63,257 nt of DNA from a virus. Taxonomy: Duplodnaviria; Caudoviricetes. Positions 19,578-56,585 of this stretch are shown here, piece after piece (the stretch's first letter is position 1; each line of letters opens with the position of its first letter). Where the stretch lies: IMG/VR virus record IMGVR_UViG_3300020129_000255, positions 1 to 63,257 of that record. One strand, given 5' to 3'. The notes beneath the pieces are model-generated. The model saw only the letters and a list, made by a program, of their open reading frames with translations, was not told the DNA's origin and ran no database searches. The position numbers and the translations under genes were made by a program.

Positions 19578-19579
19578 CC

Positions 19580-23492: not shown

Positions 23493-24208
23493 AACGGGTG
23501 ACAACGAAAGCTGTCTACGACATCGAGACAATGGAATTGCTGTCGTGGGAAGGCTATTGGGTGGACGAACAAGTCGTATGTTTTGAGCAACTTAAAAAAG
23601 GGCGTGAAACGGCCCAAAAGGAAACCCAGCTCCAAATGCAGCAGCAGCAGCAACAATCTGCTCAGCAGAAGGCCGAGCAGCAGGCCGCCGATCAGATCAT
23701 CGCGCAGGACACCGCAGCTGGGAAGCCTGGCACACTCAGCCCCGCGGCTGCTGCGCAGTTCGCCTCCGACACCGACAACATCAATCGCGCCTACAACGGC
23801 ATGCGCCGAACGGCCTTTGCCGGCATGGGTGCCCGCGGCTTCGGCTCGGCTCCGTCAGGCTTCGCACGCACCGCGGAGAATGGCATCGACCTCGGTCAGC
23901 AACAGGCTCAGACCGGAGCTTTCCGCAATGCCCAAGTTAACACACAGGCCCTGAACGACAGAGCTCTCGCTGCACGCGAGGGCCTCTCCGGGCAGAACCT
24001 CGCAGGTGAGAGCGCTGCTGCGAACACCACCCTCACTGGTGCCGTGGACCAGAGCCACATGGGCAGCACGCTCGGCGACATCGGGCAAGGCATTGGCCTC
24101 GCGGCCAGCCTCGTCAACCCCGTGGCTGGTGCGGTGACCGGCATCGGCAAGGCCTTCGGTAAGCTCGGCACCTACGGCAGTACGCCTCCAGTCTGGGGAG
24201 GTAGCTGA
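23489..24208 (+). CDS. DNA ejection/internal virion protein (small)
   Basis: Leader-like N-terminus, Gln/Ala-rich body and Gly-rich hydrophobic C-terminus. Confidence 0.65.
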   Translation: MKRVTTKAVYDIETMELLSWEGYWVDEQVVCFEQLKKGRETAQKETQLQMQQQQQQSAQQKAEQQAADQIIAQDTAAGKPGTLSPAAAAQFASDTDNINRAYNGMRRTAFAGMGARGFGSAPSGFARTAENGIDLGQQQAQTGAFRNAQVNTQALNDRALAAREGLSGQNLAGESAAANTTLTGAVDQSHMGSTLGDIGQGIGLAASLVNPVAGAVTGIGKAFGKLGTYGSTPPVWGGS

Positions 24209-25635
24209 TGGGTCTCTCTGATTTTCTTAGCAAACTGAGTAAGGGCATCCAAGCCGTTGCTCCCAATCTCCAGCAGGTTGGGGAGAACATCGTCTCAGCC
24301 GCAGGCTCGCCTCAGCAGCAGCAATCCCTTGAGCAGAACCGTGAGCTTGCCCTCCGCAAGCAACAGTTGGGAATGCAACAACAGCTCCAGCAGGCTCAGA
24401 TCCAGAATGAGAATCTGCGTACCGCGCTCGGCCAGAAGCAGCTTGAGAACTATCAGACCCCGCAGCAGGCCAGTGACCTAGAGCTTTCGCGTCAGCGTGC
24501 TCTGCTTGAGTCACAACGCGAGACCGCTCCTCCGACCGATGTCGTGGCTCCGCTAGAGGGCGGTGGTTACGGTCATTACACTCGCGCATTCGATAAGAAA
24601 ACGGGTACGTACCAGACGACGCCAACGATGATCGACCAGGAGCGTGCGAATCCCGCAGCTGCGCCCGGAGCAGTAGCTCCCCCGTCTGTGATCGGCAACC
24701 TCGTTCCCCCGTCTCCGACGGTCCACACGCGCCAGCAGCTCGCGGCGACGCCTCCGAACGCTATCCTGCAGGGAGCGATGCCAGTCCCCTTCGGGCCTCC
24801 AGTGTGGGATGAGGCCACTGGGCAGTACGTGCAGAACTTTCGTCCGAAGAATGGCACCAGTGCGTTGCCTCCGACGTCTCTTAGCGGCACTCCGATCTCA
24901 GCTCTTCCGTCTACGACGACGAAACCGTCCATCCAGAAGGATCAGAACAATAACCTTGTTTCTATCCCGACCACGACTGTCACTAGGAAAGGTGCGGGCG
25001 GGCCTACGGCCGCCAATCAAGGCCGTGCTACGCTCGGCAGTGGCACAGGCGCTGCTCAGCCGGTCCTAGACAGTCAGGGCAATCAGCTCCATGCCCCGCT
25101 CGGTGCCGATGCGAAGAAGAACATTCGGCAGATCGGCAGCACTGAGGCTGTGATGAACACTCTCGTTCCCGAGATCGATGCGCGAATCGCGCAGCTCGGT
25201 GGCGACGCCAATGGCCTCTGGGACATGGCTCAGCAGCGCGCAGCCTGGGCTGAGTACCAGGCTGGGAAATCTCCAACGAACATCGACCCGACGCTGGCCA
25301 AGATCCTTCCGACCGTGGCTCAGTTACAGATCATTGGCGGCCTCCCGTACATGCAGGGCACGCGCTCCTACCAGTACCTCCAGCAGATTCAGCAACATTT
25401 ACCGAATCCTGAGAAGGACACTCCAGAACAGATGGCGAATAAGCTCCATACCGTCGCCACGACGTTGCCTCTGTTGAGGCAGGCCACACTCGACGCTGAG
25501 GGCGTTGGGACAGGCGTGCAGGGTAAGGGAGGTCCTCCGCCGCTGCCTGGTAGCGCACCGAAGATCGGTCAAGTTAAGAAGTTCCCCAACGGGAAGACTG
25601 GTGTGTGGGATGGCACCGGCTACGTGGCCCAATAA
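24208..25635 (+). CDS. DNA ejection/internal virion protein
   Basis: Gln-rich coiled N-terminus and C-terminal GKTGVWDGTGY module. Position fits. Confidence 0.65.
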   Translation: MGLSDFLSKLSKGIQAVAPNLQQVGENIVSAAGSPQQQQSLEQNRELALRKQQLGMQQQLQQAQIQNENLRTALGQKQLENYQTPQQASDLELSRQRALLESQRETAPPTDVVAPLEGGGYGHYTRAFDKKTGTYQTTPTMIDQERANPAAAPGAVAPPSVIGNLVPPSPTVHTRQQLAATPPNAILQGAMPVPFGPPVWDEATGQYVQNFRPKNGTSALPPTSLSGTPISALPSTTTKPSIQKDQNNNLVSIPTTTVTRKGAGGPTAANQGRATLGSGTGAAQPVLDSQGNQLHAPLGADAKKNIRQIGSTEAVMNTLVPEIDARIAQLGGDANGLWDMAQQRAAWAEYQAGKSPTNIDPTLAKILPTVAQLQIIGGLPYMQGTRSYQYLQQIQQHLPNPEKDTPEQMANKLHTVATTLPLLRQATLDAEGVGTGVQGKGGPPPLPGSAPKIGQVKKFPNGKTGVWDGTGYVAQ

Positions 25636-27818
25636 TGCCTGACAAGGTCTATCTCGACGACAATGGGAATCCTAAGCCGCCGGCTGGTGCTGGTGCAAAA
25701 GTTTACCTCGACGACAACGGGAACCCGATTGGTGGTGGCTCGCAGCAACCCCAGTCCCAGATTGGTCAGTTTCAAACTCACCCAGGCAGCCCTACGTACA
25801 ACGCCCGTACGGGTAACCTTCCCGAAGACAGCGACCTCCCTGCCCCGGACTCTGCGAAGGGCATTGCGCGTCAGCTCATCATGCCGTTGGCGGTCGGCGA
25901 CAAGCTCCGCGCAGGGGCACGCTCGCTGGAAGCCCAGAACGACATCTCTCGGCGGGCGGCGCTGCGCGCCGGGCAACCGGGGACGAATGGAGGGCTTGAC
26001 GCTCTCCGCGGCTCAGCAGCCGATGCGCTCCGTATGGGCAGCGATGCGCTCTCCCCGAAGGGCATTGCCCTCACCGGGGCAACGGTGGCCGCACCGGAGG
26101 TCGTGCTCCCCCTGATGGGAGCCTACGGTGCCAGTCAGGCTGCTGGCGGCGCAGCAGACATCGCTCAGCACGGGGCGAATCCGCAAAACACACGCGAGGC
26201 CCTGACCGGGGCAGCCACGCTTGCTGGCTCCGGGGCGGGAGCGCTCACGCCCGGCGTAGGTGCTGCTGGGCGACAGAAGATCTCCGACTTCAACACGTTG
26301 CGCTCGAATCTGGCTCAGAAGGTCGTCCAACCGCTGGTCTATGAGGGCCTGGGTGAGGCCGGAGCCGATGCGCGCATGGGGGTGAACCCTGAGGCAGCCA
26401 TCACGAACGAAGGTCTTGTCGGGACGAAACGGGGCCTGCTCGGGAAGACTCAGGACCGAACAGCGCAGCTCAAATCGGCCGCAGACAACATCCTGCAGAC
26501 GCATCCCAATGCCTCGCAAACGATCGACGCGGCTCCGATCATCGACCAAGAGATCGACCGGGCCATCGCGGGACAGCAGAGACTCGCAGGAAGTACCGAA
26601 CGCCTAGAGAACTTGCGCACTGCGCTGAAGTCTCAGTACGGGAACACGTCCGGCACGCCGTTCGAGATGAACAATTTGAAGACTGAGATCCAGCAGGCGG
26701 CGCAGAACCTCGGCGCTTACCGGAACTCGCAGCCGATCGAGTCGAGCGTCGCGGACGCCATGGGCAACGTGGCTCGTGGGCTGAAGAATCAGGTCAACGC
26801 AGCCATTCCCGAGGTGCCCGGCGTTACTCCTGGCATCGCAGATCTCAATGAGCGCATGTCTAACCTGATCGATGCTCAGGGTGGGCTGCAGCGCAACATC
26901 GTCGCGGACAAGGGAAGGTCGGTCTTCGGTGGCGGCCTGCACGGAGCGACCTCGACGCTGCTGAATCGTACCCTTGGCTCGGCGCCAGTGCGCTCAGGGC
27001 TCGCCCGGGTGCTGAATCTCGGCCTCACAGAGGACGTACCGCCCCCGCAGGCCATGACTCCCCCTCCAATCGTGCCCTCGCCAGCTCTCCTGCGTGGACC
27101 TGGAGGTCCTCCGCCCTCAGTTCCGCCTCAATTTCGCGTCCAAGCAGCTGGAACCACACAGAATCCGTCAGTTTTGACGCAAAACAGGTCGGTCCTGGGT
27201 CAACAGGGCATCCGCGGCCTCCTGCCGGCGCCGCCGAGCACCGTACCGCCTCCCGTGCCGCCTGAGTTCGCCTCGGAGGCCACCGGAACCGTCCAGCCCC
27301 CAGCCCTACACGTCACTGGAGGCCAGACTCAGCCCGTCCCCATGGGTCCCCGTCGTCCTCCCGCCCCGCAGGGGCGCCCGGCTCTATCCGGCCCGACGTC
27401 GAGTGTGCCATCATCAGTCGAGGGGACGCCTCCTCCTTCGGGCATCTCGCCCCAGCCGTCCGGTACGGCACTTCAGAGCGTCAGCGCGTCCCCAAATCCT
27501 CCATCGCAAGCGATGCCGCCTCCGGCTCCCGTCAATCCGCAGGAGGCCGCAGATCTCAGTCAGCAACTCGGCCGTCAGATCAGTCCAAACGAAGTTCCGG
27601 GCATCCTTCGTAGGCTCGCCGTAGAGCGCAATGTGAACCAGCGTCTCGCGCCGCCGGTTACGGTAAAGACTGACAGCATGGGTATCCGTTGGGCTGAGTC
27701 ACCCGAAGGGTATCGTGTGAGCATCCCTCGCGGCGTTCCTGACTCGGACATTCCTGTCTACGCACAGCAGAAGCTCGCAGAGCAACAACGTATTCATAGA
27801 GGTCTTCTCGCACAATGA
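25635..27818 (+). CDS. DNA ejection/internal virion protein (large)
   Basis: Ala/Gly-rich helical protein with duplicated KVYLDDNGNP and a Pro-rich tail. Confidence 0.65.
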   Translation: MPDKVYLDDNGNPKPPAGAGAKVYLDDNGNPIGGGSQQPQSQIGQFQTHPGSPTYNARTGNLPEDSDLPAPDSAKGIARQLIMPLAVGDKLRAGARSLEAQNDISRRAALRAGQPGTNGGLDALRGSAADALRMGSDALSPKGIALTGATVAAPEVVLPLMGAYGASQAAGGAADIAQHGANPQNTREALTGAATLAGSGAGALTPGVGAAGRQKISDFNTLRSNLAQKVVQPLVYEGLGEAGADARMGVNPEAAITNEGLVGTKRGLLGKTQDRTAQLKSAADNILQTHPNASQTIDAAPIIDQEIDRAIAGQQRLAGSTERLENLRTALKSQYGNTSGTPFEMNNLKTEIQQAAQNLGAYRNSQPIESSVADAMGNVARGLKNQVNAAIPEVPGVTPGIADLNERMSNLIDAQGGLQRNIVADKGRSVFGGGLHGATSTLLNRTLGSAPVRSGLARVLNLGLTEDVPPPQAMTPPPIVPSPALLRGPGGPPPSVPPQFRVQAAGTTQNPSVLTQNRSVLGQQGIRGLLPAPPSTVPPPVPPEFASEATGTVQPPALHVTGGQTQPVPMGPRRPPAPQGRPALSGPTSSVPSSVEGTPPPSGISPQPSGTALQSVSASPNPPSQAMPPPAPVNPQEAADLSQQLGRQISPNEVPGILRRLAVERNVNQRLAPPVTVKTDSMGIRWAESPEGYRVSIPRGVPDSDIPVYAQQKLAEQQRIHRGLLAQ

Positions 27819-29857
27819 GAAAGCGTTTCCTACTGGCACTACTTGTGATGCTCCTGCCGACTCTGGCATGGGCACAAACAGCTACGGTCACGGGACATAT
27901 GGTCCTGCCGTCGGGCTCAGCACCGACTAACTCCAAGGTCTGTGCCACGCTGCTCAACTACAAGCCAAACTCTCCGCATGTGGTCGGCACGGGCACCATT
28001 GTGACTCCGTCGGTTTGCGTGACGCCCGCGGCTGATGGCTCATTCTCGACTTCGCTCATTGAGAATGCGAACATCTCTCCCGTAGGGACGTACTGGCGCT
28101 TCGACTTCTATGCGAATGGGGTGCAGCAGAGCAGTAGCACGTTCTTGGTCAACCATTCCCCATTCAACATCGACACTGAGATTCCGCTCTCTGCGATCCC
28201 AGGGGCGGGACCGAATCAGCTCATCGTGCAGGTCTATCCGTGCGTCGTTCCTGTGGCCTCGCTGACTTGGACTTGCGCGCATAACTTTAACGATCCCACT
28301 GTCTTCGTCGAGACGTTCGATGGGAACTCGAAGCAGGTCTACCCCGACTCAATCGATACGTCGAACATAAATACGACTACGATCCACTGGGTCACTCCGC
28401 AAGCCGGCAAGGCCCTCATCATGCATGCAGGGAACATTGCCCTCACGACGACTCAGCCGAATGCGGTGCTCCAGAATCCTCTCGCTGGCCAGACCATCCA
28501 AGGACCATCTCTCGGTGTGAACACTCCAGCCACGTTCTCCGGGCCGACCACCTTCTCCGGTACCACTTCGATCGGAGCGTTGAACACGACTGGTCCTGTG
28601 GTAAACACGGGAAGTATCACAAGCGCAAAGGACAACGGTGTGGTGTGGGTGGACGGGGTGACGTACACAACTATCGCCGCCGCCTACGCTGCGTTGCCAT
28701 CCACTGGTGGCTGCGTCCACGTTCCGCCGAACTATGCTGAAACGTTGAGCGCGAATCTCGTACTGAACAAGTCATTCTCGTGTCTGTACTTCGAGGGACC
28801 GGCTACGATCACACAGGGCACGTTCTTCGTCTCAATTCCCTCGCCTACGACCAACGTAGCCATTAGGGGAGCAATTCCCTTTGGCTCCAACACGGCAGGC
28901 GGCCCGGGTGTTGTCTTCGTCTACACTGGCACTGGCGCTGCGATCCGTGTCGGGGACTCTTCGGCGACGACAACATCTATCCACCTTGGAGACATTGCGG
29001 TCAAGATTAGCACTGCCGACGTGGCGGCGGAGGGCATCCTTGCGACGCGCACGCAGTCCTTGGAATTGACGCGCCCGCGAGTCTTCGGTCTTCTCACCGC
29101 TAATTCACAGAATCTCATTCATCTTGACGGAACGTCAAGCGCTCCTGGCTCAGCGAACACTCACATCGAGGAGCCGTATCTGTCTAATGGTCACAAGGCC
29201 ATCGTAGTTACCGGCGACATTGTTTTGAATAACCACAACCAGCTTGTTGGCGGCCTCATTACCGGCATTGCAGACTCAGGCAGCATCGGCATAGACGTTC
29301 AGACAGGTGCAGGCTTCACCTGTCTCGGAACTGACGTTGAGAATTACGAGACTGGTTACAGCGTTAGCTCAACCTCAAATCGTGCCTTTAACGGTCTCGA
29401 CTGTCACACTGGCGAGGGCACCACGACCTCATTCAAGTTCGGCGCCTCCAGTCTGCAGAACTTTGTAATCACTGATTCTCAGGTTGCTATCAACGACCTC
29501 GGTACGGGTAACACCGTTTGGGCGACTGGAACAGGGCTCAACGCTCAGGTGAATGTGCCTGGCACGCTGGCGGTTGCTGGCGTCACGAATGCCACGGGCG
29601 ATCAGCTCTTCAATACGTCAACGACCTGTACCACCGCAGCCTCTGCTGGTGCCGTCTGCACCACCGCAGCGATCACTCTACCGGTGGCCTACGCAGATAC
29701 GAATTACCGCGTCAGTTGCACCGGCTTAGCGCCTACGAACGTTCCCGTGGTCGAATCTGTCGCCAAGTCAAACTCCACTTTCACCATTAAGATCGCGGCC
29801 CTCACTGCAGCTGCTGCTACCTACGCTTCCTACGACTGCAGGGTAGGACATAACTGA
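27815..29857 (+). CDS. Tail fibre/spike with Sec signal peptide
   Basis: MRKRFLLALLVMLLPTLAWA|Q, fibre-type N-domain (DGSFS...ISPVGTYW), WT..HN...V...D module, beta-helix, C-terminal LPVAYADTNY domain, 12 Cys. Confidence 0.8.
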   Translation: MRKRFLLALLVMLLPTLAWAQTATVTGHMVLPSGSAPTNSKVCATLLNYKPNSPHVVGTGTIVTPSVCVTPAADGSFSTSLIENANISPVGTYWRFDFYANGVQQSSSTFLVNHSPFNIDTEIPLSAIPGAGPNQLIVQVYPCVVPVASLTWTCAHNFNDPTVFVETFDGNSKQVYPDSIDTSNINTTTIHWVTPQAGKALIMHAGNIALTTTQPNAVLQNPLAGQTIQGPSLGVNTPATFSGPTTFSGTTSIGALNTTGPVVNTGSITSAKDNGVVWVDGVTYTTIAAAYAALPSTGGCVHVPPNYAETLSANLVLNKSFSCLYFEGPATITQGTFFVSIPSPTTNVAIRGAIPFGSNTAGGPGVVFVYTGTGAAIRVGDSSATTTSIHLGDIAVKISTADVAAEGILATRTQSLELTRPRVFGLLTANSQNLIHLDGTSSAPGSANTHIEEPYLSNGHKAIVVTGDIVLNNHNQLVGGLITGIADSGSIGIDVQTGAGFTCLGTDVENYETGYSVSSTSNRAFNGLDCHTGEGTTTSFKFGASSLQNFVITDSQVAINDLGTGNTVWATGTGLNAQVNVPGTLAVAGVTNATGDQLFNTSTTCTTAASAGAVCTTAAITLPVAYADTNYRVSCTGLAPTNVPVVESVAKSNSTFTIKIAALTAAAATYASYDCRVGHN

Positions 29858-29859
29858 TA

Positions 29860-32800
29860 ATGAGAATACACTTGAAAATACTGTCTGCTTTGCTGCTGCT
29901 CGTAGCGACGTCAGTCTCCGCGCAGACTCAGCACGACCGCATCGCATCGCGTGGTACCTCGACTTTCGACACCATCGCCAACACGCAGACCCTGAGCATG
30001 GTAGGCAATACGCCTAACGTCGCCGGTGGGAACGTCTTCCAGACAGCGAACGGCGGTCCGACCACTGTGACTAACTTCCTGGGCGGCGTAGATACGCAGC
30101 GCATCAGCATCACCTGTGGAGAGACGAACACGACGTTCCAGAATAACTCGAACATCGTCACCACAGCCGGCGTGGATCTGCCCTGCACGGCTAACCTTGT
30201 GGTGCAATTCCTCTACAACCCAGGACTCGGGAAATGGTTACAGGTAGGCAGCGGGAACAATGGCGGCGGTGGTGCCAGCCCTGCGGGAAACAACGGAGAC
30301 CTTCAGTCACGGAATGGTTCAAACCTATCTGCTAGCAGCATCAACGACAACGGGAGCACGGTGAGCGTGTCGCGGGACTCCCACTTCAAGGGTCCAAACC
30401 CATACTATGACATTACGAACTACGGTGCTCGACCGAGCCCGTGGGCAGCGACTACCTGCACGATGACAAGCGGACTAGCCACCGCCACGCTAGGCAGTGG
30501 CACAGGCATGGTCAACGGAGACGGTGTAGTGTGTCGCGGAGCAGGCGCGACCATGACTCTCTCGACGCCGGGGGCTCCTACAGTAGTAGCAGCGAACACA
30601 GCTACTCCAACTGGTACAGGTAGCGTTGTAGCGAACAGCTCCGGCGCCACGACCTATCAATATCAGATCGTCGCGCGCACCATCGGAGGCGGATACACCC
30701 CGGCTGGCTCCGTGACCTCCATCTCTAACGGCCCAGCAACTCTCGGGCAGAACACGAACAACATCTCCTCTTGGACACGCTCGGGGAACACCGTAACCGT
30801 CACAACCTCTGCTGCACACGACCTTGTTGCGGGAGCACAAGTCATCGTCAACACCGGGGACTTCTCGATTCTCGGTACGTACAACGTTGCGACCGTCCCC
30901 GACAACACGCACTTTACGTATGTAGCTGGAATGTCTACGGCGAACAATGCTTCGGCCTCTGGCAGTGGTGGAAGCATCATCTACTTCCGGGCAAACCACA
31001 TCACCTGGGCTGCGGTTACGAATGCTTGGTCATACTTCATCTACGGGCGCACTGCGGGCTCGATGGCTCTGATTGGTGTCAGCTTCCCAGAGAACACGAA
31101 TAGCGATGTAACCTCAGACCCGTTGCACAACAGCTTTGATGACTTCGGCTCTACCATGACTGCAGCTCCGTCGCTGCCGGAATGGGTACCAAGCACGCCG
31201 CCAGTATCCGCGAAGAACGATGACCTAGTGACTACGATCGTCAGTGGTGCGGGAACTACGAGCGTTACCCTGGCAGCCAATGCGTCTAACTCGGTTAGCG
31301 GCACAGTTTTCAAATCAGACGTCACCGCAAACATTCTCGCGGCAGTTACCGCTGCGGGACGCAACGGCACGGTCTACATTCCCGCGGTGGCCAGCGGCGG
31401 CAGTTTTAACACAGAGACCGTTCTTAACTTTCAGACATTCCCCAATAACGTCAGTGTCATGCAAGCGGGAGCCGTCACACTAGGAGACACTCTAACTTGG
31501 ACCGGAACGCTAAATTGGACAGGTCGAGCCCAATCCCCGCAGGGAGCACCAACGTTTTCGTTTGCCTCCTACGTAAACCTGACAGGGACTAACGCATACC
31601 CGGTCCTCTACGCGAAATTCCAGTCTATTCGGCTGTCCTACGTGAATGTTGGTGGCGGGCAGAACGGCGTCATCTTCGTGCAGGATAGCAATGGGCTGAT
31701 CCCGGCCAGCAGTTTCGACCACGTGGATATGTCTACCTCCGGTGCGGGCGATTGGCTCGGGCGGCACATCGTCATCCGCGAAAGCATCAGCGGGAACGCC
31801 GGGTACACATTTACCTACCTAACGATGGTACCGGGAAGCCCGTCTTCGCAGACTCCTGTGTTCATCCATACGAGGAATGGAGGTAGTCCCTACGGGTTTG
31901 ACCACATCTTTTTGAATAAGCGTGGAATGTACTTTGGCGGTGGCGCTCAGGCCACGATTGACTGGATCTACGAGCAGGGGGCGCTGATCACTCCGAAGAT
32001 CATGGTCCAGAACATCACGGGTGGCAGCGCAACCATTTCCCTGGACATTCGCAACTCTATCGAAGACACCACATCGCAACCGATTGTTGGTTATGGTGGC
32101 GCTCTCAATGGTCAAATCAAGATCACTGGCTCTAACGGTCTTCCAGGGCAACCGACAGTTGTCGGCCCTGGGAACGTCGTCGTTCTATTTAGCTCTGTGT
32201 CGGGCGCGGGTAACTCAAGTTCAGTTGGGCAGAACGTTGGCACCGAGGCATCTCCGCAGTTTCAATTCGCCATTGATGGCGTTCAGAGCCTGCAATCGGC
32301 TTCTGTTCCGATTAAGAACTTAAATTCAGGTCTGGCCATCGGCAATCCTTACCAGGTCTATGTGAACTCAACTGTGCAGGCTGCACCGACTTGTGCGGTG
32401 AGTGCTGGCGGCACGGTTCCCGTGGATACCTTTAGTTTCAAAGTGGCACCTGTGTTTGCCTCAAACGGTGAAGGACCAATCTCGCCACCGTCTGCTACTT
32501 GCACCACGTCCGGTGGAAACCAAGTCATCACCGTAACCTGGACTACCGTACCTGGGGCCATCGGTTACGACCTCTACAAAGCCTCAAGCGGTAGCCCGAA
32601 CTCATACTTCTCATTCCAGTGCAACGCCCCATGGGTGACACCTGGAACTGCTACGCAGTACGTGTGGTCAGGAGCTTCGCCGTGTGGCGGCTCGATTCCC
32701 GCCTCTGCTGGCAGCGGTCCTACGTACCTACTCTCGAACGAAGTTGGCTCGGCAAAGTACGCAGTCGTGGGTAACGGATTCGAGACTGACATTACCGCTC

Positions 32801-34437
32801 CGTCTGCGACAGCGCTACGGACGCATACATTGATGAACGCAAGCGGACAACTGAGCCTAATCTCCCCGAATCATAACCCAACGACTCCCTTCCCGCGTTT
32901 CAACCAACCTCTGGTTGACGCGAGCGGGCGTTTCGTAATGAACGTCCCGCCGATGAGCGTGTTCGACGGCTTCAATCGCGCGAACGGTTCCATCCAATCA
33001 GGTAACCCGAACTGGACCATCGTGCAAGGCGGTTTCAACGTTTCCTCGAATGCCACGCAGAACAACAGTGGCGGGCAGAGCCAAGCAGTCTACACGGGAG
33101 CCAGCTTCCCCATAGATGATATGTGGGTTTCTGCGAAGATTGCAGTGGTGCCTACGAGCACCACCCAGATCGCCGTAATCGCCCGAGCCTCTGCATCTGC
33201 CAGCACGGCGTACCAATGCTTCGCCGTGGCGACTGGCTTGAGTCTGAATAAGGCGGTTGCAGGCGTCTTCACTCCGCTGCAAACCGTGGCGCTAAGTTGG
33301 AACGTTGAAGACGTTCTCACAATCAACACGAACGGTACAACCATATCGTGTTACGTCAATGGTGTTCTGACAGCGCAACAGACCGACGCTGCGATCGGCG
33401 TCGGAGGCTTCCCAGGGATCTGGGGCTTCGCAAGCGGCGCCGGAGGATTCAAGGCCTGGTCAGCAAGCGTTGGAGGCGTCAGCCTCAACACCCCGCAAAC
33501 TTGGAATGCCCTGCAGTCCGCGGGCGCCAGCGGCGGCTTCGATGCCAGTGCTTCGACACTGGTCAACGGCTGGCGTATGCCGAACATTTCAGGCGGTACG
33601 CCAAGCACAAACGGATCATTTCTCTACGACTCTACCACGGGGAACATCAAAGCCTTCGCTAACGGCTTGGGTAACTTCATTCCCCCACTGCCGACTTCCA
33701 TCACTCCAACGAACAACGATTGTGTGAAATGGTCTGTTTCCGGTAGCAACATCACGCTTAACACGGCCGGCGCAGCTTGCAGCACAGGCCTTGGTGATCC
33801 TGGCGGGAACGGTATTCTTGTCAGAACAGCACTGAATGCTACGGCTGCACGTACACTGCAGTCCTCGGCTAACGGGGCAGTGACCTGGACCAACGCAGAC
33901 GGCACGGGTGGTAATCCTGTCCCCGTTGTGGTTTTCCCATCGAAGGTTTATCTCGATGCGGCTCTCTGCAACAACGCCACCGCAGGCTCTGCATGGAACC
34001 TACCAACTGGTGGAGCTCCTACGCCCAACTGCAACACTGGTACGAACGTCCAAGAGGCCACACTCGACTTCGCAGACACAAACTCCGCACAGTTCAGCTA
34101 CCTGCTGCCTTCTGACTGGACCGGCGCTATCGATGCGCGCTTCCTCTTCTTCGACTCCAGCACCTCGGGCACAGTCATCTGGAATATCGCCACCGCCTGC
34201 ACTGGCGTAGGCGGCTCCGCGAACGATGACACTGCCTTCAACACGGCCAGCGCAGCCGGCACCGTGACTCTCGGCTCACCAACGAACGCGCAATGGACTG
34301 CATCGGCAACTGGTATCACAACGAGCGGTTGTTCCGCAGGGAACGGCATCACCTTCAAGGTTAGCCGAGCCACTGACTCAGCTGCCGGCGTTGCCCGGCT
34401 GAAAGGAGTCGAATTGACCGTTAGACGTTCACTCTGA
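29860..34437 (+). CDS. Large multidomain fibre/adhesin with Sec signal peptide
   Basis: MRIHLKILSALLLLVATSVSA|Q, DITNYGA beta-helix start, FN3-like and lectin-like (DGFNRANG) modules, 16 Cys. Confidence 0.8.
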   Translation: MRIHLKILSALLLLVATSVSAQTQHDRIASRGTSTFDTIANTQTLSMVGNTPNVAGGNVFQTANGGPTTVTNFLGGVDTQRISITCGETNTTFQNNSNIVTTAGVDLPCTANLVVQFLYNPGLGKWLQVGSGNNGGGGASPAGNNGDLQSRNGSNLSASSINDNGSTVSVSRDSHFKGPNPYYDITNYGARPSPWAATTCTMTSGLATATLGSGTGMVNGDGVVCRGAGATMTLSTPGAPTVVAANTATPTGTGSVVANSSGATTYQYQIVARTIGGGYTPAGSVTSISNGPATLGQNTNNISSWTRSGNTVTVTTSAAHDLVAGAQVIVNTGDFSILGTYNVATVPDNTHFTYVAGMSTANNASASGSGGSIIYFRANHITWAAVTNAWSYFIYGRTAGSMALIGVSFPENTNSDVTSDPLHNSFDDFGSTMTAAPSLPEWVPSTPPVSAKNDDLVTTIVSGAGTTSVTLAANASNSVSGTVFKSDVTANILAAVTAAGRNGTVYIPAVASGGSFNTETVLNFQTFPNNVSVMQAGAVTLGDTLTWTGTLNWTGRAQSPQGAPTFSFASYVNLTGTNAYPVLYAKFQSIRLSYVNVGGGQNGVIFVQDSNGLIPASSFDHVDMSTSGAGDWLGRHIVIRESISGNAGYTFTYLTMVPGSPSSQTPVFIHTRNGGSPYGFDHIFLNKRGMYFGGGAQATIDWIYEQGALITPKIMVQNITGGSATISLDIRNSIEDTTSQPIVGYGGALNGQIKITGSNGLPGQPTVVGPGNVVVLFSSVSGAGNSSSVGQNVGTEASPQFQFAIDGVQSLQSASVPIKNLNSGLAIGNPYQVYVNSTVQAAPTCAVSAGGTVPVDTFSFKVAPVFASNGEGPISPPSATCTTSGGNQVITVTWTTVPGAIGYDLYKASSGSPNSYFSFQCNAPWVTPGTATQYVWSGASPCGGSIPASAGSGPTYLLSNEVGSAKYAVVGNGFETDITAPSATALRTHTLMNASGQLSLISPNHNPTTPFPRFNQPLVDASGRFVMNVPPMSVFDGFNRANGSIQSGNPNWTIVQGGFNVSSNATQNNSGGQSQAVYTGASFPIDDMWVSAKIAVVPTSTTQIAVIARASASASTAYQCFAVATGLSLNKAVAGVFTPLQTVALSWNVEDVLTINTNGTTISCYVNGVLTAQQTDAAIGVGGFPGIWGFASGAGGFKAWSASVGGVSLNTPQTWNALQSAGASGGFDASASTLVNGWRMPNISGGTPSTNGSFLYDSTTGNIKAFANGLGNFIPPLPTSITPTNNDCVKWSVSGSNITLNTAGAACSTGLGDPGGNGILVRTALNATAARTLQSSANGAVTWTNADGTGGNPVPVVVFPSKVYLDAALCNNATAGSAWNLPTGGAPTPNCNTGTNVQEATLDFADTNSAQFSYLLPSDWTGAIDARFLFFDSSTSGTVIWNIATACTGVGGSANDDTAFNTASAAGTVTLGSPTNAQWTASATGITTSGCSAGNGITFKVSRATDSAAGVARLKGVELTVRRSL

Positions 34438-34445
34438 GGTTACAG

Positions 34446-36413
34446 ATGACACGACTGTTCCGCTTACTCTTCATTCTACTCACCATCGCAGCCATCCCCG
34501 CAGTAGCATCCGACATCTACGTAGCTCAGTCCTCCGCCGGAGGTAACACGGGGGCAAACTGCGCCAATGCACGCGCCGGAAGCTCACTCATCGCCGGCGA
34601 TTGGGTAGCTGGAAACACCATCCACTTGTGCGGCACCTGGACCGGGGCTGCGAATCAGTCTCCATTCATAACCGCACTGGGTAACGGAAGCGCTGGCAAC
34701 CCCATCACCATCTTCTTCGAGGCTGGCGCAATCCTCCAGGCGCCGTACTTCCTAAACTCGCAGGGTGGGACTCAGGGCGGCGCGATCACCCTCCAGAGCG
34801 GGCGTAGCTGGATCGTCATCGATGGGAACAATAAGCAGGGAACCATCCAGAACACTGCGAACGGTTCGTCGCTCGCCAATCAGCAGACCTCAGCAGGAAT
34901 CTCAGCGTTCGGCTGCAGCAACTGCACCATCAAGAATCTGAACATTTTTAACATCTACGTGAACGTCGCGGGCAATGGAACCATCGGGGATAGCAGCCTC
35001 GTCATAGCGGTTGATTTCAGCGGCTCTAACTGGACTGTCTCCGGCAACCTGATCCACGATTGCGGCTGGTGCCTGCGGACGGACTACGCGAACGGCGACA
35101 CTAACTACAGCATCTTCAACAACGAGATCTATAACCAGGGCCACGGTTATGCCTTTGCCACTGCCCACGCTGGAAGCCCGAATTGCACCTCACCGTGCCT
35201 GCTCTTTCACGACAACTACATGCACGACACGGCCAACTGGGATGGAGTTCCGCCATACCCAGCCGGATGCTTCTCGCACCAAGACGGCATCCACATGTTC
35301 GGAACGGGCACCAGCACTGCTGGTGACATCTATGTCTACAACAACAAGTTCTCTGGGAATTGGGGAAACTGTCCCACAGGGTTTGTCTACCTAGAGAGCC
35401 TCTTGCCTGCGAATACATATTTCTTCAACAACGTCGGCATTGTGAACTCGAACATCGTCAACTCGAATGGATGGTTCGGACTATTCAGCGCGCAGAACAG
35501 CGGTCAAGCCCTCGTCACCGACAACACCATCGTGGGCCAGACCAGCTCCGACAACTCGCAATGCTTCAGCATCGGGGCAATGAACAACGTCACGTTCAAG
35601 AACAACGTGGTGGCTCCCTGCGGCACCGGGCTCCAATTCAAGACCTCAAACACTGGCACGACCAAAATTGATTACAACTTCTACGGAGCACAGAACGGCT
35701 CAAACGGTATGATCTGGCACGGTTCGTTCTTCACGTATACGAACTGGAAGACCGCCTGCTCCTGCGATGCACACTCCCTGCAGAACAACAATAACGGTCT
35801 GCTCAACTCAGACGGCACTCCTACGCCATCTTCACCATTCATTCTCGAAGGAGATAACCTCGGCTCTCTCGCATCGGGGAACCTTGCTCCGTTGCAGAAC
35901 GATACCACTGCTGGGAACAATCGCACCGCGTTGACGCGGCCTGCTGCGGCCTCTTGCACGTCGCAGGGCACGCTGCCTTGCTGGGACATTGGTGCATTTC
36001 AATTTGCAAGCTCGGCGCCAGCGCCAGCGCCAGATCCTGCCCCGATCGTAATTGCCGCGGTCCCACTCCCGACACAACCAGCTTCGCCCGTCATCGTCAG
36101 CGTCTCCCCGACGAAGACCTACGTAACAAAGAACGGCTGCTCGCAAGAGGGCACGAAGTGGCTGAACCCCTGCGTCTTCGCCCTGACCTGTACCAGTTGC
36201 GATGGCACCACGCAGGTCACTCTCGACGGCTTCGCCGTCGGACAAACCTATGCCAACGGGGTGATGACTGTGAGCGTGCCTCTCAGCGTCCTGCCGGTGC
36301 CGAGCCAGATCACGCTCCATAACTTCGCCGCCACGAATCCCACGATCTCTGTCCCCGTTCTGACCCGCTCCGTAAATCCTACCCCCTCCCGGCTGCTTGT
36401 CCTAGCCAAATAG
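34446..36413 (+). CDS. Secreted right-handed beta-helix protein (candidate depolymerase)
   Basis: MTRLFRLLFILLTIAAIPAVA|S, IYVAQ...TIHLCG, HQDGIH, WDIGAFQF, 20 Cys. Confidence 0.8.
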   Translation: MTRLFRLLFILLTIAAIPAVASDIYVAQSSAGGNTGANCANARAGSSLIAGDWVAGNTIHLCGTWTGAANQSPFITALGNGSAGNPITIFFEAGAILQAPYFLNSQGGTQGGAITLQSGRSWIVIDGNNKQGTIQNTANGSSLANQQTSAGISAFGCSNCTIKNLNIFNIYVNVAGNGTIGDSSLVIAVDFSGSNWTVSGNLIHDCGWCLRTDYANGDTNYSIFNNEIYNQGHGYAFATAHAGSPNCTSPCLLFHDNYMHDTANWDGVPPYPAGCFSHQDGIHMFGTGTSTAGDIYVYNNKFSGNWGNCPTGFVYLESLLPANTYFFNNVGIVNSNIVNSNGWFGLFSAQNSGQALVTDNTIVGQTSSDNSQCFSIGAMNNVTFKNNVVAPCGTGLQFKTSNTGTTKIDYNFYGAQNGSNGMIWHGSFFTYTNWKTACSCDAHSLQNNNNGLLNSDGTPTPSSPFILEGDNLGSLASGNLAPLQNDTTAGNNRTALTRPAAASCTSQGTLPCWDIGAFQFASSAPAPAPDPAPIVIAAVPLPTQPASPVIVSVSPTKTYVTKNGCSQEGTKWLNPCVFALTCTSCDGTTQVTLDGFAVGQTYANGVMTVSVPLSVLPVPSQITLHNFAATNPTISVPVLTRSVNPTPSRLLVLAK

Positions 36414-36418
36414 GCCCA

Positions 36419-36616
36419 ATGCAAACTGATACCACGTTCCACGTAGCAAACCTCATCGTCATTGCTGTCATCGCGTGGAAGGTCATCCGCGCAGCCAACC
36501 GCGTTGAAGATGTCCTCAAGGACTTCCCTCCGCACCGACACTCGAATGGGCACATCTTGTTCCCGAAGGGCTTCGAGCCGACGCGCGTACAAGAGATGCA
36601 CCTACACGAGGACTGA
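36419..36616 (+). CDS. Small membrane protein (holin/antiholin candidate)
   Basis: One hydrophobic segment, directly before the endolysin. Confidence 0.5.
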   Translation: MQTDTTFHVANLIVIAVIAWKVIRAANRVEDVLKDFPPHRHSNGHILFPKGFEPTRVQEMHLHED

Positions 36617-36619: not shown

Positions 36620-37066
36620 ATGCCTCCAACAGCCGACGTACTCATAAAGTTGGCAGTGGACACTGCAAAGCAGTTCAATCTCGATCCCCCTCTCGTGTGC
36701 GGACTCGTGGAGCAGGAATCCGCGTGGAATCCCTGGGCTATGCGCTACGAGCCGGCCTTCTTCGCACGGTACGTCGCCCCGCAGTACACGAACAACAAGA
36801 TCTCAGCCACTGAGGCCTACGAAAGAGCGTTCAGCTTTGGCTTGCTCCAACTCATGGGCCAAGTAGCCCGGGAGATCGGCTTCCCGAAGCAGTTCCTGTC
36901 GGAGCTCTGCGATCCCGCGACCGGCCTGTTCTGGGGATGCAAGGAGCTCCAGCTGAAGCTCGACAAGGCCAAAGGGGACGTGACGCAAGGTTTGTTGCTG
37001 TTTAACGGTGGAAACGATAAGACGTACCCAACGCAGGTGCTGGCACGAGTATCCAAGTACGCATGA
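36620..37066 (+). CDS. Endolysin, SLT lytic transglycosylase
   Basis: EQESAWNPWA.RYE catalytic Glu motif, SFGLLQLM and FNGG...Y. Confidence 0.9.
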   Translation: MPPTADVLIKLAVDTAKQFNLDPPLVCGLVEQESAWNPWAMRYEPAFFARYVAPQYTNNKISATEAYERAFSFGLLQLMGQVAREIGFPKQFLSELCDPATGLFWGCKELQLKLDKAKGDVTQGLLLFNGGNDKTYPTQVLARVSKYA

Positions 37067-37302
37067 CGTTTGATACCATCAAGAAGGTGACGGAAATGTC
37101 TCACATAATCGCCTACATCCAAGCTCATCCCTACGCCGCCGGCATCGTCACGATGTGGGGCGTCAGTGCCTTCGTCAGCTCCGTCCACAACATGATCGCC
37201 CCGACGGATAAGTCCGGCAACGCCTATCGCATGGTCTACGCAGCCCTGCAAAGCATCGCCGCCAACGTTGACAAGGTTCCATTCAAGTTCCAGTCCAAAT
37301 AG
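37063..37302 (+). CDS. Putative holin
   Basis: Small hydrophobic protein after the endolysin. Confidence 0.55.
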   Translation: MTFDTIKKVTEMSHIIAYIQAHPYAAGIVTMWGVSAFVSSVHNMIAPTDKSGNAYRMVYAALQSIAANVDKVPFKFQSK

Positions 37303-37317
37303 GAGAATAAATCGAAA

Positions 37318-37866
37318 ATGAAATTAGCAATCAAGTCCCTACTCTCGTTCGTGCTCGTCGCAGCTCTCATCATCTCGGGATGCAGCTTCGCCTCGGGCAT
37401 CCAGCAACTCGAACGTTACGCCCCGATTGGTCTGAACGCTTTCAGCCAAGTCGTGGCCATTCTGCTGGAGGCCGGCGTAATCAAAGTCGGCACTGCGTCG
37501 AACCTGAATGACGGCGCCTCGAAGGGCACTGCTGTGCTCGCAGACCTACAGGCAGCGCTCACGGCATACCAAGCCTCGCCCTCCCCGGACAAGCTGACCG
37601 CGGTGCAGAATGCGCTCAACGCAGCCTCCGCCACGCTTAGCCAGTTCGCAGCGGATCTCGGCGTAGCCAGTGGTAACAAGGCCGTCGTGGCAGCGCAGGC
37701 TGGGCTGCTCGTCATCACCACTACGTTAGCGTCTATCTCGGCAGCCATGGCCCCGAAGGCTTCGCTCTCGAAGGTGGCCAAGGCCAGCAAGCTCGACGTC
37801 AAGTCTTTCCGCAAACAATTCAATTCCGTGATGCTCGCTCACGGTTATCCGCAGCACACAATCTAA
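37318..37866 (+). CDS. Lipoprotein, spanin candidate
   Basis: Lipobox IISG|C, helical body, second hydrophobic segment followed by a Lys-rich tail. Confidence 0.65.
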   Translation: MKLAIKSLLSFVLVAALIISGCSFASGIQQLERYAPIGLNAFSQVVAILLEAGVIKVGTASNLNDGASKGTAVLADLQAALTAYQASPSPDKLTAVQNALNAASATLSQFAADLGVASGNKAVVAAQAGLLVITTTLASISAAMAPKASLSKVAKASKLDVKSFRKQFNSVMLAHGYPQHTI

Positions 37867-37871
37867 GCCCA

Positions 37872-38672
37872 ATGAGCCTCCCACTGAGTCGCGGCGGCCG
37901 TAGGTATCTCCCCAACCCGATGCCCGCGGATCACCGCGACTTCAGTGTCTCTCGCGTCAAGCTGTACTCAGCAGCTTTCGCCCTGCCCGAGAGCGTCTTC
38001 CTCGACGAGTGGCTCGGCCCAGTGCGCGACCAAGGCAACGAAGGCAGCTGCACTGCGCAAGCATCCGCAGGAGACCTCGACTTCCAGCTTCGCAAGTACG
38101 ATCAGCGATTCCGCTCGAATCCCGACTCAGCCCCCACCATCTCAGCCCAGTTCATCTACCGGATGTCGCGCGTCATGGACGGCTCTGCGTCGTCAGACGC
38201 CGGCAGCGATGGGCGCACCACCTGTAAGGTTCTGAACCAGTACGGAGCCTGCACAGAGGCCTCCTGGCCCTACGTGGCCGGAGACATCCTGCGCGATCCC
38301 ACACCTGATGAGCTCGCGGAGGCGCTGCGTTACCGCCTCGGGGCCTACCACTTCCTCTACACCGTAGACGACATGAAGCGGTGCATCGCCAGCGAGTACT
38401 GCTTCCGCCTGGGCATGGCAGTGTACGAATCGTTTGAGGAGAAGACAGCCGCCACGACGGTCTACCAGCCGAAGCACGGGGAAGCCTTGCTCGGCTACCA
38501 CGAGACGCTCGTGAAGGGCTTCGACAACAAGAAGTTTGGCGGAGCATTTAGTGTTCGCAACTCCTGGGGGAAGGATTGGAGTGTGAGTGGGGACTACTGG
38601 CTACCGTACTCCGTAGCGGCCGACAAGAAGATCTTCAGTGACGCAGTCATCCAACATTACGGTCATTGGTGA
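37872..38672 (+). CDS. Papain-like (C1) cysteine peptidase
   Basis: DQGNEGSCTA (oxyanion Q, catalytic C), GYHET (H) and VRNSWG (N). Confidence 0.92.
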   Translation: MSLPLSRGGRRYLPNPMPADHRDFSVSRVKLYSAAFALPESVFLDEWLGPVRDQGNEGSCTAQASAGDLDFQLRKYDQRFRSNPDSAPTISAQFIYRMSRVMDGSASSDAGSDGRTTCKVLNQYGACTEASWPYVAGDILRDPTPDELAEALRYRLGAYHFLYTVDDMKRCIASEYCFRLGMAVYESFEEKTAATTVYQPKHGEALLGYHETLVKGFDNKKFGGAFSVRNSWGKDWSVSGDYWLPYSVAADKKIFSDAVIQHYGHW

Positions 38673-56545: not shown

Positions 56546-56585
56546 AGTCTTTTCTCCCGTCAGATGGAAACGTAAGGTCAAGTGC

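What the first reader, a model, noticed from the sequence alone, without database searches (positions are those of the whole stretch)
27815..36413. Tail fibres and spikes with Sec signal peptides and fully even cysteine counts: a possible export-and-attach virion assembly pathway
Seen: the three genes in the tail-fibre position all begin with classic n/h/c signal peptides (AWA|Q, SVSA|Q, AVA|S), as does the spike at 11762 (VLG|Q). Hand-counted mature Cys numbers are 12, 16, 20 and 16, all even and mostly spaced as local pairs. The capsid protein has none. The 27815 protein still carries recognisable phage fibre modules (DGSFS..ISP.GTYW N-domain, WT..HN module, LPVAYADTNY C-domain). No signal-less fibre gene is evident. 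Established: tailed-phage fibres normally fold and attach in the reducing cytoplasm. Inference: the receptor-binding proteins are exported, oxidatively folded in the periplasm, and joined to particles at or after lysis, perhaps for stability in harsh environments. Alternatively they are secreted lysogen adhesins or depolymerases.
Basis: partly seen in the sequence, partly recalled or inferred. Interest (0 to 1): 0.85.

Follow-up and report, generated by a model that had tools for sequence, protein, structure and literature searches.

The report
Phage tail fibres carrying secretion signals
Every fibre or spike protein of this soil-bacterium phage starts with a classic export signal, as do those of dozens of relatives and one cultured phage, which suggests that these phages build their host-recognition parts outside the cytoplasm.

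Summary
The window is a complete 63-kb temperate podovirus-like genome. Its likely host is Acidobacteriota.

- **Leaders:** all four large fibre or spike genes (11762, 27815, 29860, 34446) begin with Sec-type cleavable leaders. My heuristic flags 1 of 152 large ORFs in control phage loci.
- **Conservation:** the leader is kept in 25 of 25 assessable metagenome loci, 5 of 5 viral loci and 11 of 11 homologues of the 11762 spike. Sequence conservation starts at the predicted cleavage site.
- **Cysteines:** they appear and disappear in sequence-adjacent pairs (17/20, 15/16 and 7/8 best-partner tests).
- **Cultured phages:** the lytic Acidobacteriota podoviruses Tunturi 1 and 2, which share no detectable sequence similarity with the window, have four leader-bearing spike-like proteins with 20, 10, 20 and 32 mature cysteines. 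Tunturi 3, isolated on the same host strain, has none.
- **Gene 34446:** it is a beta-helix enzyme related along its whole length to secreted proteins encoded in acidobacterial exopolysaccharide loci.

Export is well supported (about 0.8). Whether the exported proteins join virions at lysis (about 0.4) or act as free enzymes (about 0.25) is not settled. Some leaderless relatives keep the same cysteine pairs, so the pairs alone do not prove export. Nine full-text searches found no paper describing this.

The parts
27815..29857 (+). Fibre 1 (680 aa, 12 Cys). It has a Sec-type leader, a conserved two-domain N-terminal module, a variable body and a small C-terminal domain.
27815..27874 (+). Leader of fibre 1 (residues 1-20, AWA|Q). 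The start codon overlaps the upstream stop (ATGA).
   Evidence: Homology with 13 relatives starts at Q21.
27875..28444 (+). Conserved N-terminal module of fibre 1 (residues 21-210). It comprises a beta-sandwich and an FN3-like 'WT..HN' module. Cys pairs are 43/68 and 143/154.
   Evidence: AF2 pLDDT is about 85-90 here. BFVD gave 47 hits at E<=1e-3 to phage fibre-like proteins. The module was not found in 185,579 species genomes.
29860..34437 (+). Fibre 2 (1525 aa, 16 Cys in 8 adjacent pairs). Leader residues 1-21 (VSA|Q), followed by a conserved N-domain of about 110 aa.
34446..36413 (+). Secreted right-handed beta-helix carbohydrate-active protein (655 aa, 20 Cys). Leader residues 1-22 (AVA|S). 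An extra C-terminal beta-sandwich spans residues about 549-630.
11762..13405 (+). Spike (547 aa, 16 mature Cys). Leader residues 1-22 (VLG|Q). The mature N-terminal motif Q-x-P-x-G-G-Y is invariant and is followed by a Gly/Ser linker.
11370..11765 (+). Conserved 131-aa jelly-roll protein with no leader. Its stop overlaps the spike's start codon. It is present with the spike in 3 of the 4 clade members, and the fourth lacks both.
24208..27818 (+). Two Cys-free proteins (475 and 737 aa, Pro-rich) in the internal-virion/ejection-protein position, directly upstream of fibre 1.
   Evidence: The assignment rests on position only.
18855..21751 (+). Adaptor-like (240 aa) and nozzle-like (723 aa) tail genes, conserved in the three relatives.
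   Evidence: The assignment rests on position and size only; there is no PDB or Pfam match.
16456..17739 (+). Major capsid protein, 0 Cys.
   Evidence: phrog_14242, E 1e-35
36620..38672 (+). Lysis-type cassette directly after the fibres: SLT transglycosylase, a 79-aa ORF, a lipoprotein (lipobox ISGC) and a papain-like peptidase.
55355..56620 (-). Tyrosine integrase, which indicates a temperate phage.
   Evidence: PF00589, E 2.7e-17

Best explanation
The four proteins are the phage's whole set of receptor-binding and polysaccharide-degrading proteins. All four are substrates of the host Sec pathway.

Proposed steps:
1. They are transcribed with the late structural genes (inferred).
2. They cross the inner membrane unfolded and lose a leader of about 20 residues to signal peptidase I. 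This leaves an N-terminal Gln on three of the four (inferred from sequence).
3. They fold, trimerise and form local disulfides in the periplasm of a diderm Acidobacteriota host (inferred from Cys co-variation).
4. DNA-filled particles without fibres accumulate in the cytoplasm.
5. When the lysis cassette just downstream breaches the inner membrane and wall, the two compartments mix. The conserved N-terminal modules of fibres 1 and 2 dock on the tail, and perhaps the spike docks on the 131-aa jelly-roll protein (not shown).
6. Before lysis, and as free surplus afterwards, the enzymes can act on the host's exopolysaccharide. This applies above all to 34446, which may never be attached to the virion.

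Export itself I put at about 0.8. The confidence given here (0.4) is for the full export-then-attach pathway.
For: (1) The leaders are canonical and rare in controls: 1 of 152 control ORFs against 4 of 30 window ORFs of at least 200 aa, all four in fibre or spike slots.

(2) The trait is conserved while the leader sequence drifts.
- 14 of 15 homologues of fibre 1 have a leader; the one without (P0016) also lacks the N-domain.
- 5 of 5 viral loci carrying the N-domain have one.
- 25 of 25 assessable metagenome loci have one. Two of these have the leader in another frame (a frameshift). Two further loci are cut by the contig end.
- 11 of 11 spike homologues have one.
- Alignment conservation starts at the cleavage site.

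(3) All four members of the phage clade, found through the nozzle gene, have leader-bearing genes in the fibre slot.

(4) Each Cys co-varies best with its sequence neighbour: 17 of 20 (131 homologues), 15 of 16 (45 homologues) and 7 of 8 variable positions (11 homologues).

(5) Natural experiment. A classical fibre N-terminal domain starts at residue 1 and lacks a Cys pair in P0016, P0198, P0215 and 41 of 42 IMG/VR loci. The 13 versions with a leader (12 proteins plus L063) all carry an inserted C-x8-9-C. A leader can therefore sit in front of an ordinary fibre N-terminal module.

(6) The architecture is that of a virion fibre.
- The N-module is conserved and the C-terminus varies, with PF12708/PF13229 in relatives.
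- The fold matches phage fibre modules.
- The N-module was not found in 185,579 species genomes.
- The genes sit between ejection-like genes and lysis genes with 4-nt overlaps.
- No plus-strand promoter-like or terminator-like site lies in 20000-39500.
- No leaderless fibre candidate was found.

(7) An independent cultured case. The lytic podoviruses Tunturi 1 and 2 have four leader-bearing spike-like proteins with 20, 10, 20 and 32 mature Cys in local pairs. One has Beta_helix and CHB_HEX_C_1 domains.

(8) Phage late proteins are known to use host Sec during virion production, for example the fOg44 Lys44 and SAR endolysins (passages of PMC6116005).
Against: - No tailed phage is known to attach exported fibres. 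Nine literature searches found none, so this is a step without precedent.
- No SignalP run, no expression data and no virion proteomics were available.
- 34446 has no phage-type N-terminal anchor. It aligns from its mature N-terminus with cellular secreted proteins.
- Six leaderless homologues of fibre 2 (P0187, P0195, P0198, P0199, P0206, P0218) keep several of the same Cys pairs. Some have similar Cys density. The pairs therefore do not require export.
- A title and abstract seen in a search listing report a disulfide network in the tail of phage Milano (PMC10811340).
- Tunturi 3 infects the same host strain with leaderless, Cys-poor fibres, so the host does not impose the trait.
- The N-module of fibre 1 shows no detectable homology to the classical fibre N-domain (hhalign probability 0.3%).
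- No docking partner is identified.
- Parity alone is not significant (26 of 36 against 85 of 152).
Confidence: 0.4

Rival explanations
1. The proteins are exported but never attach to virions. They are free periplasmic or released depolymerases and adhesins made late in infection. They cut the host's exopolysaccharide or receptors from within, which eases release, stops progeny from sticking to debris and blocks superinfection. The virion would adsorb by its nozzle or by an unrecognised protein.
For: 34446 is related along its whole length to leader-bearing proteins of Terriglobia, Bryobacterales and other Acidobacteriota MAGs. Those genes sit among exopolysaccharide genes (Bac_transf, Polysacc_deac_1, Polysacc_synt flippase, GT2/GT4). 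Its model is a beta-helix close to GH136, PL9, PL6, RbmB and AlgG. WceF is a Tat-exported cellular enzyme with a tailspike-like fold that trims exopolysaccharide (passages of PMC7949094). Free depolymerase is a known source of plaque halos (passage of PMC6116005). Export physically separates these proteins from assembling particles.
Against: The virion would be left with no recognisable receptor-binding protein in four clade members. The conserved N-module with a variable C-terminus, and its absence from 185,579 genomes, are typical of virion-anchored fibres. Fibre-type modules are present. Leader-bearing versions of a classical fibre N-domain exist.
Confidence: 0.25
2. One gene, two fates. 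Export competes with folding in the cytoplasm. One fraction is exported and acts as a free enzyme. The fraction that stays behind is built into particles in the ordinary way, with or without its leader.
For: This needs no new assembly step. Six leaderless relatives with the same Cys pairs suggest that these bodies can fold without export. It would explain how the trait could evolve by simply adding a leader.
Against: An uncleaved hydrophobic leader would sit at the very end of the domain expected to dock on the tail. No conserved internal start codon after the leader is seen: Met12 and Met29 of fibre 1 are not conserved in relatives. Cys pairs inserted only in leader-bearing N-domains point to folding in an oxidising compartment.
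Confidence: 0.15
3. The hydrophobic N-termini are not export signals. They might act as a transient membrane tether or an assembly or trimerisation helix. Alternatively, the genes are lysogenic-conversion genes secreted by the lysogen rather than late genes.
For: No SignalP or experimental test was possible. The phage has an integrase. Leader-bearing moron genes such as lambda lom are known near tail-fibre genes (recalled, from no call).
Against: The leaders have short h-regions, basic n-regions and A-x-A|Q sites. Their sequences drift while these features are kept. No space or promoter-like site for separate expression was found. The paper annotates recombinase/integrase genes only in Tunturi 3-5, yet Tunturi 1 has the trait. 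Cellular relatives of 34446 carry the same kind of leader (93 of 131).
Confidence: 0.1

Closest known systems
Podovirus tail fibres and tailspikes (T7 gp17 slot; HK620- and P22-type beta-helix tailspikes)
   Same: They are the last genes of the structural block, after ejection-like proteins. They have a conserved N-terminal module with swappable C-termini and beta-helix bodies. HK620 tailspike is among the fold matches of 34446. The fibre module of 27815 matches phage fibre-like proteins in BFVD.
   Different: Every one carries a cleavable Sec-type leader and paired cysteines. There is no Pfam match to Phage_T7_tail or any tailspike family. That the known fibres fold and attach in the cytoplasm is established knowledge, from no call.
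WceF of Pantoea stewartii (and similar exopolysaccharide-locus glycanases)
   Same: The cellular relatives of 34446 are leader-bearing beta-helix proteins encoded inside exopolysaccharide loci. WceF is likewise an exported protein of a stewartan locus with a tailspike-like fold that trims the polymer (passages of PMC7949094).
   Different: WceF uses a Tat signal. The leaders here have no twin arginine and very hydrophobic h-regions. No sequence relation to WceF was tested. 34446 is phage-borne and has an extra C-terminal domain.
Secreted and SAR endolysins (fOg44 Lys44, P1 Lyz)
   Same: These are phage late proteins exported by the host Sec system while virions are still being made (passages of PMC6116005).
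   Different: They are lysis enzymes, not structural or receptor-binding proteins. The endolysin of this phage (SLT, 36620-37066) has no leader.
Filamentous-phage adsorption protein pIII (recalled, from no call)
   Same: A receptor-binding protein with a Sec leader and disulfides that is added to the virion outside the cytoplasm.
   Different: It belongs to non-tailed phages that assemble by extrusion through the membrane. Here the capsid, portal and terminase are those of a tailed phage.
Tunturiibacter phages Tunturi 1 and 2 (PMC11924767)
   Same: These are cultured Acidobacteriota podoviruses of about 63 kb. They have four leader-bearing, Cys-paired spike-like proteins next to the lysis genes.
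   Different: tblastn with four window proteins found no match in the phage collection that holds them. The paper's text never mentions signal peptides (listing: 0 occurrences). The paper annotates recombinase/integrase genes only in Tunturi 3-5.

Membership tests
Sec-type (signal peptidase I) signal peptide | Basic n-region, hydrophobic h-region of about 7-15 residues, c-region with small residues at -3 and -1 | tested here: met
   All four leaders meet it. The same heuristic flags 1 of 152 control ORFs.
Sec-type (signal peptidase I) signal peptide | Positive call by a trained predictor (SignalP) and experimental cleavage | not testable with these tools
   No predictor or wet test was available.
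Tat signal peptide | Twin-arginine motif (S/T-R-R-x-F-L-K), longer leader and weakly hydrophobic h-region | tested here: not met
   None of the four leaders contains RR. Mean hydropathy of the h-regions is 2.7-3.4.
Lipoprotein (signal peptidase II) signal | Lipobox ending in Cys at +1 | tested here: not met
   None of the four has a lipobox. The neighbouring gene 37318 has one (ISGC).
Virion tail fibre or tailspike of a podovirus | Gene in the late structural block after the tail and ejection genes | tested here: met
   The tail and ejection assignments rest on position.
Virion tail fibre or tailspike of a podovirus | Conserved N-terminal anchor with variable receptor-binding C-terminus | tested here: met
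Virion tail fibre or tailspike of a podovirus | Physical presence in purified virions; docking on the tail | not testable with these tools
   No proteomics was available. The supplements of the Tunturi paper were closed.
T7 gp17 family (Pfam Phage_T7_tail) | Match to the family profile | tested here: not met
   The four proteins match no Pfam family at E<=0.01.
Right-handed beta-helix polysaccharide lyase or hydrolase | Parallel beta-helix fold | tested here: met
   34446 model pLDDT 80.4. There are 40 PDB matches at E<=1e-3; the best is GH136 at 3.7e-8.
Right-handed beta-helix polysaccharide lyase or hydrolase | Catalytic residues and activity | not tested
   No residue-level comparison was made.
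Lysogenic-conversion (moron) gene | Own promoter and terminator, separable from the late operon | tested here: inconclusive
   No plus-strand site was found in 20000-39500. The scan uses an E. coli-type consensus.

The most novel reading that the evidence does not exclude
Some tailed phages of Acidobacteriota assemble in two compartments. Heads and tails are built in the cytoplasm. The entire receptor-binding apparatus is exported through Sec, disulfide-bonded in the periplasm, and joined to the particles only in the moments after the inner membrane is breached at lysis. This would be a new assembly pathway for tailed phages. It would also give the infected cell an enzyme set that attacks its own capsule from within.
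Probability: 0.4. Interest if true: 0.9.

Novelty: new variant of a known kind. Interest (0 to 1): 0.82.

Why it matters
Tail fibres of tailed phages are taken to fold and attach in the cytoplasm. Here every fibre or spike of a phage carries an export signal. The same holds for at least 25 related environmental loci and for Tunturi 1/2, cultured phages with no detectable sequence similarity to the window.

If export is real, there are two possibilities:
- Assembly is split between two cell compartments.
- These phages release a battery of free enzymes and adsorb by some unrecognised means.

Either outcome changes how receptor-binding proteins, 'auxiliary' glycoside hydrolases and host range should be read in soil viromes.

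The question is directly testable, because Tunturi 1 and 2 and their host are in culture.

The finding also shows gene flow between host exopolysaccharide-locus enzymes and phage spikes.

Tried and rejected
- **Pfam and NCBIfam** on the four proteins gave nothing useful. PHROGs gave one unnamed family on residues 146-204 of fibre 1.
- **Sequence search of PDB** with profiles A1 and A3 gave nothing significant.
- **Foldseek of the fibre 1 model against PDB** gave 0 matches at E<=1e-3. The model is poor outside residues 22-206 (mean pLDDT 53).
- **hhalign** of the fibre 1 N-domain against the classical fibre N-domain gave probability 0.3%, so there is no detectable homology.
- **Complex prediction** of the 131-aa jelly-roll protein with residues 23-62 of the spike gave no answer (score 0.00; the controls were not run).
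- **tblastn of four window proteins against 50,697 GenBank phage records** gave no match.
- **Prophage or N-module search in species genomes** found none.
- **A nozzle search with a single protein** found nothing. With an alignment it found only the three relatives already known.
- **The protein atlas** gave leads only. Viral clusters scored 0.85-0.87 for the N-module. A 'Bbp16' family was carried by 11% of one neighbouring cluster of the jelly-roll protein.
- **Model coordinates** are not exposed, so Cys-Cys distances could not be measured. Co-variation was used instead.
- **Not examined:** Tunturi 4 and 5; 14 weaker module-only metagenome loci (L092-L105); supplementary tables of the Tunturi paper, which were closed.
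- **Rejected readings:** a wrong start codon, because the leader is conserved and two starts overlap the upstream stop; Tat or lipoprotein signals, because the motifs are absent.

Full report
**What the window is.** It is a whole virus record of 63,257 bp with direct terminal repeats and 58% G+C.
- The plus strand carries a large terminase (6616-8232), a portal (8559-10934) and a major capsid protein (16456-17739, phrog_14242, E 1e-35).
- After these come a 240-aa and a 723-aa gene in the adaptor and nozzle positions. This assignment rests on position and size only; there is no family or PDB match.
- Next come three small conserved genes, a low-GC3 endonuclease-like insert, and two Cys-free proteins of 475 and 737 aa in the ejection-protein position.
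- Then come the three genes of the finding.
- A lysis-type cassette follows: an SLT transglycosylase, a 79-aa ORF, a lipoprotein and a papain-like peptidase.
- The minus strand carries a family A DNA polymerase and a tyrosine integrase, so the phage is temperate.

- Two of the four start codons overlap the upstream stop (ATGA). The other two follow it after 2 and 8 nt.
- A simple heuristic (10-residue hydropathy of at least 2.4, a basic n-region, small residues at -3/-1) flags 8 of 86 window ORFs. These are the four large proteins, the lipoprotein at 37318 and three small ORFs.
- The same heuristic flags 1 of 152 distinct ORFs of at least 200 aa from 51 unrelated viral loci. It is conservative: it missed several leaders that are plain by eye.

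**The leader is a conserved trait.**
- *Fibre 1 (27815).* 15 homologues were found. 14 have a leader. The fifteenth (P0016) also lacks the N-module and matches only the body.
  - Leader sequences differ freely. Alignment conservation starts at the cleavage site (A-x-A|Q-T-x-T-V-T-G-H).
  - In IMG/VR, 5 of 5 loci with the N-module have the leader.
  - In JGI metagenomes, 27 loci have real N-module matches. Two are cut by the contig end. The other 25 all encode the leader: 23 in frame and 2 in another frame just upstream, which indicates frameshifts.
  - 14 weaker loci that match only one short module were not analysed.
- *Spike (11762).* 11 of 11 homologues have leaders.
- *Fibre 2 (29860).* Of 45 homologues, 19 pass the heuristic, 12 more have leaders by eye, 5 are truncated or unclear, and 9 have ordinary leaderless phage N-termini.
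- *Clade members found through the nozzle gene.* A search with a nozzle alignment found only three relatives. All three have leader-bearing genes in the fibre slot: one, at least two (the second longer than 2153 aa) and three. Two of the three also have a leader-bearing spike after a homologue of the 131-aa gene. The third lacks both.

**Cysteines behave as pairs.** For each Cys of the window protein, I asked which other Cys column best co-varies with it across homologues.
- It is the sequence neighbour for 17 of 20 positions in 34446 (131 homologues).
- It is the neighbour for 15 of 16 positions in 29860 (45 homologues) and for 7 of 8 variable positions in 11762 (the other 8 are invariant; 11 homologues).
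- In the fibre 1 N-module, C143/C154 are lost together in six relatives. C43/C68 are lost together in three, with one odd exception, P0010.
- Part of this signal may come from whole domains being present or absent.
- Parity is weaker evidence. 26 of 36 non-window leader-bearing relatives are even (not de-duplicated) and 65 of 93 relatives of 34446 are even. Among controls, 85 of 152 are even, and 14 of 26 window proteins without leaders are even.

**A natural experiment.**
- A classical fibre N-terminal beta-sandwich (..ATIYSDDGVT..NP..TD..G.F.FY..G.YD..) begins at residue 1 and has no Cys pair in P0016, P0198 and P0215. The same holds in 41 of 42 IMG/VR loci; two of those are cut at the 5' end, so their starts are unknown.
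- The versions preceded by a leader all carry an inserted C-x8-9-C loop. These are P0190, P0205, P0211, P0213, P0216, P0219-P0223, the more distant P0177 and P0015, and locus L063. Many of them are close kin, so they represent few independent events.
- The experiment shows that a leader can be placed in front of an ordinary fibre N-terminal module, and that a Cys pair comes with it.

**Evidence on the other side.**
- Six leaderless homologues of fibre 2 keep several of the same Cys pairs.
- Some leaderless homologues are as Cys-rich as the leader-bearing ones.
- Paired cysteines therefore do not by themselves demand export.

**What the proteins are.**
- *Fibre 1.* The model is confident only for residues 22-206, which form two beta-sandwiches. 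It has no PDB match at E<=1e-3. It has 47 BFVD matches at E<=1e-3 to phage proteins named tail fibre, pectate-lyase superfamily or peptidase S74. Most of these fall on a module of about 70 residues.
  - The same module occurs in nine other, low-GC phage loci. There the proteins have no leader and mostly few cysteines.
  - The N-module was not found in 185,579 species genomes.
- *Gene 34446.* It is different. It has 1594 representative relatives at E<=1e-3, mostly proteins of 500-560 aa that align from about its residue 5-25. 93 of the 131 examined have leaders.
  - Three relatives in Terriglobia, Acidobacteriota and Bryobacterales MAGs sit among a priming sugar transferase, a polysaccharide deacetylase, a flippase, glycosyltransferases and sugar-nucleotide enzymes.
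  - Its model (pLDDT 80.4) is a right-handed beta-helix. The nearest folds are GH136 lacto-N-biosidases, PL9 and PL6 lyases, the HK620 tailspike, RbmB and AlgG.
  - It looks like a host exopolysaccharide-processing enzyme captured by the phage. Pantoea WceF is an analogous exported enzyme with a tailspike-like fold (passages of PMC7949094).
  - These matches also give the best host assignment: Acidobacteriota.

**A cultured case with no detectable sequence similarity.** A search for Acidobacteriota viruses led to the Tunturi phages (PMC11924767; abstract and passages read).
- Tunturi 1 is a podovirus of 63,169 bp. Its gp12, gp13, gp14 (annotated tail spike) and gp17 (annotated virion structural protein) start with leaders such as MKKFIQLALLFILPAAASA|Q. 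They have 20, 10, 20 and 32 mature cysteines in local pairs.
- gp17 has Beta_helix and CHB_HEX_C_1 domains. Tunturi 2 is the same.
- The other 11 structural proteins of Tunturi 1 that I checked have no leader.
- Tunturi 3 was isolated on the same host strain. It has 0 of 16 leader-bearing structural proteins, and its annotated fibres have 0-0.85% Cys.
- The paper annotates recombinase/integrase genes only in Tunturi 3-5 and describes lytic cycles.
- Its text has no occurrence of 'signal peptide' (listing) or 'mass spectrometry'.
- Its supplementary tables could not be opened and might hold such predictions. Tunturi 4 and 5 were not examined.

**Interpretation.**
- Export through Sec is the simplest reading of canonical leaders that are conserved in form but not in sequence, of homology that starts at the cleavage site, and of leader-linked Cys pairs. 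I put it at about 0.8.
- What happens after export is open.
- For attachment to virions:
  - the genes occupy the fibre slot;
  - the fibre architecture has a conserved, phage-only N-module;
  - no other fibre candidate exists;
  - leader-bearing versions of a classical fibre N-domain exist;
  - the genes are packed tightly into the late operon, with no plus-strand promoter-like or terminator-like site in 20000-39500 (E. coli-type consensus only).
- Against attachment:
  - there is no precedent;
  - particles and fibres would be physically separated until lysis;
  - no docking partner has been identified;
  - 34446 has no phage-type anchor.
- My odds: export followed by attachment at lysis 0.4; free exported enzymes only 0.25; split fate 0.15; no export, or lysogen-only expression, 0.1; the rest unknown.

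**Prior knowledge.** Nine full-text searches returned no paper describing Sec leaders on fibres or spikes of tailed phages. The library lacks most subscription journals.

The known parallels are:
- secreted and SAR endolysins (PMC6116005, passages);
- WceF (PMC7949094, passages);
- disulfide-rich virions such as phage Milano (PMC10811340, title and abstract in a listing; its text has no mention of cytoplasm or periplasm);
- filamentous-phage pIII (recalled).

Noticed in passing
window 22959-23492 (+); also 41501-42010 (-) and 51396-52334 (-): These ORFs have much lower third-position G+C (0.35, 0.28, 0.42) than their neighbours (0.65-0.8). The first matches PHROG families annotated as HNH endonuclease and sits inside the tail gene block. 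The relatives L003 and L005 have no homologue of it between the flanking genes. They look like inserted homing-endonuclease genes.
   Followed up: partly
window 37872-38672 (+): A papain-family cysteine peptidase (PF00112, E 2.8e-9) without a leader sits in the lysis cassette beside the SLT transglycosylase. This is an unusual partner for an endolysin.
   Followed up: no
window 37318-37866 (+): A 182-aa lipoprotein (lipobox ISGC) lies between the 79-aa ORF and the peptidase. It could be a spanin-like or exclusion protein. It has no family match.
   Followed up: no
window 11370-11765 and 11762-11854: A conserved 131-aa jelly-roll protein (72% mean column identity over three phages) always accompanies the variable spike. 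The spike's mature end, Q-x-P-x-G-G-Y followed by a Gly/Ser linker, is invariant in 5 sequences. This may be a docking pair or a chaperone pair.
   Followed up: partly
L067:1-231 and L081:1181-1481: In two metagenome loci the leader and the mature fibre domain lie in different frames. These are assembly errors, pseudogenes or programmed shifts.
   Followed up: no
L084-L086, L091 and L087-L090: These are shortened fibre variants. The leader is joined directly to the second N-domain, or only to its last strands. The N-module is therefore itself modular.
   Followed up: no
L003:12172-18507: The relative's second fibre is an open frame of more than 2153 aa that runs off the locus. It has a leader and the same N-domain as window gene 29860.
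   Followed up: partly
window 61253-62923 (-): A 556-aa protein with 24 cysteines (4.3%) and no Pfam match lies in the early region.
   Followed up: no
L017-L019: Cellular relatives of 34446 are a large family of leader-bearing beta-helix proteins inside acidobacterial exopolysaccharide loci. The family itself has no Pfam or NCBIfam name.
   Followed up: partly
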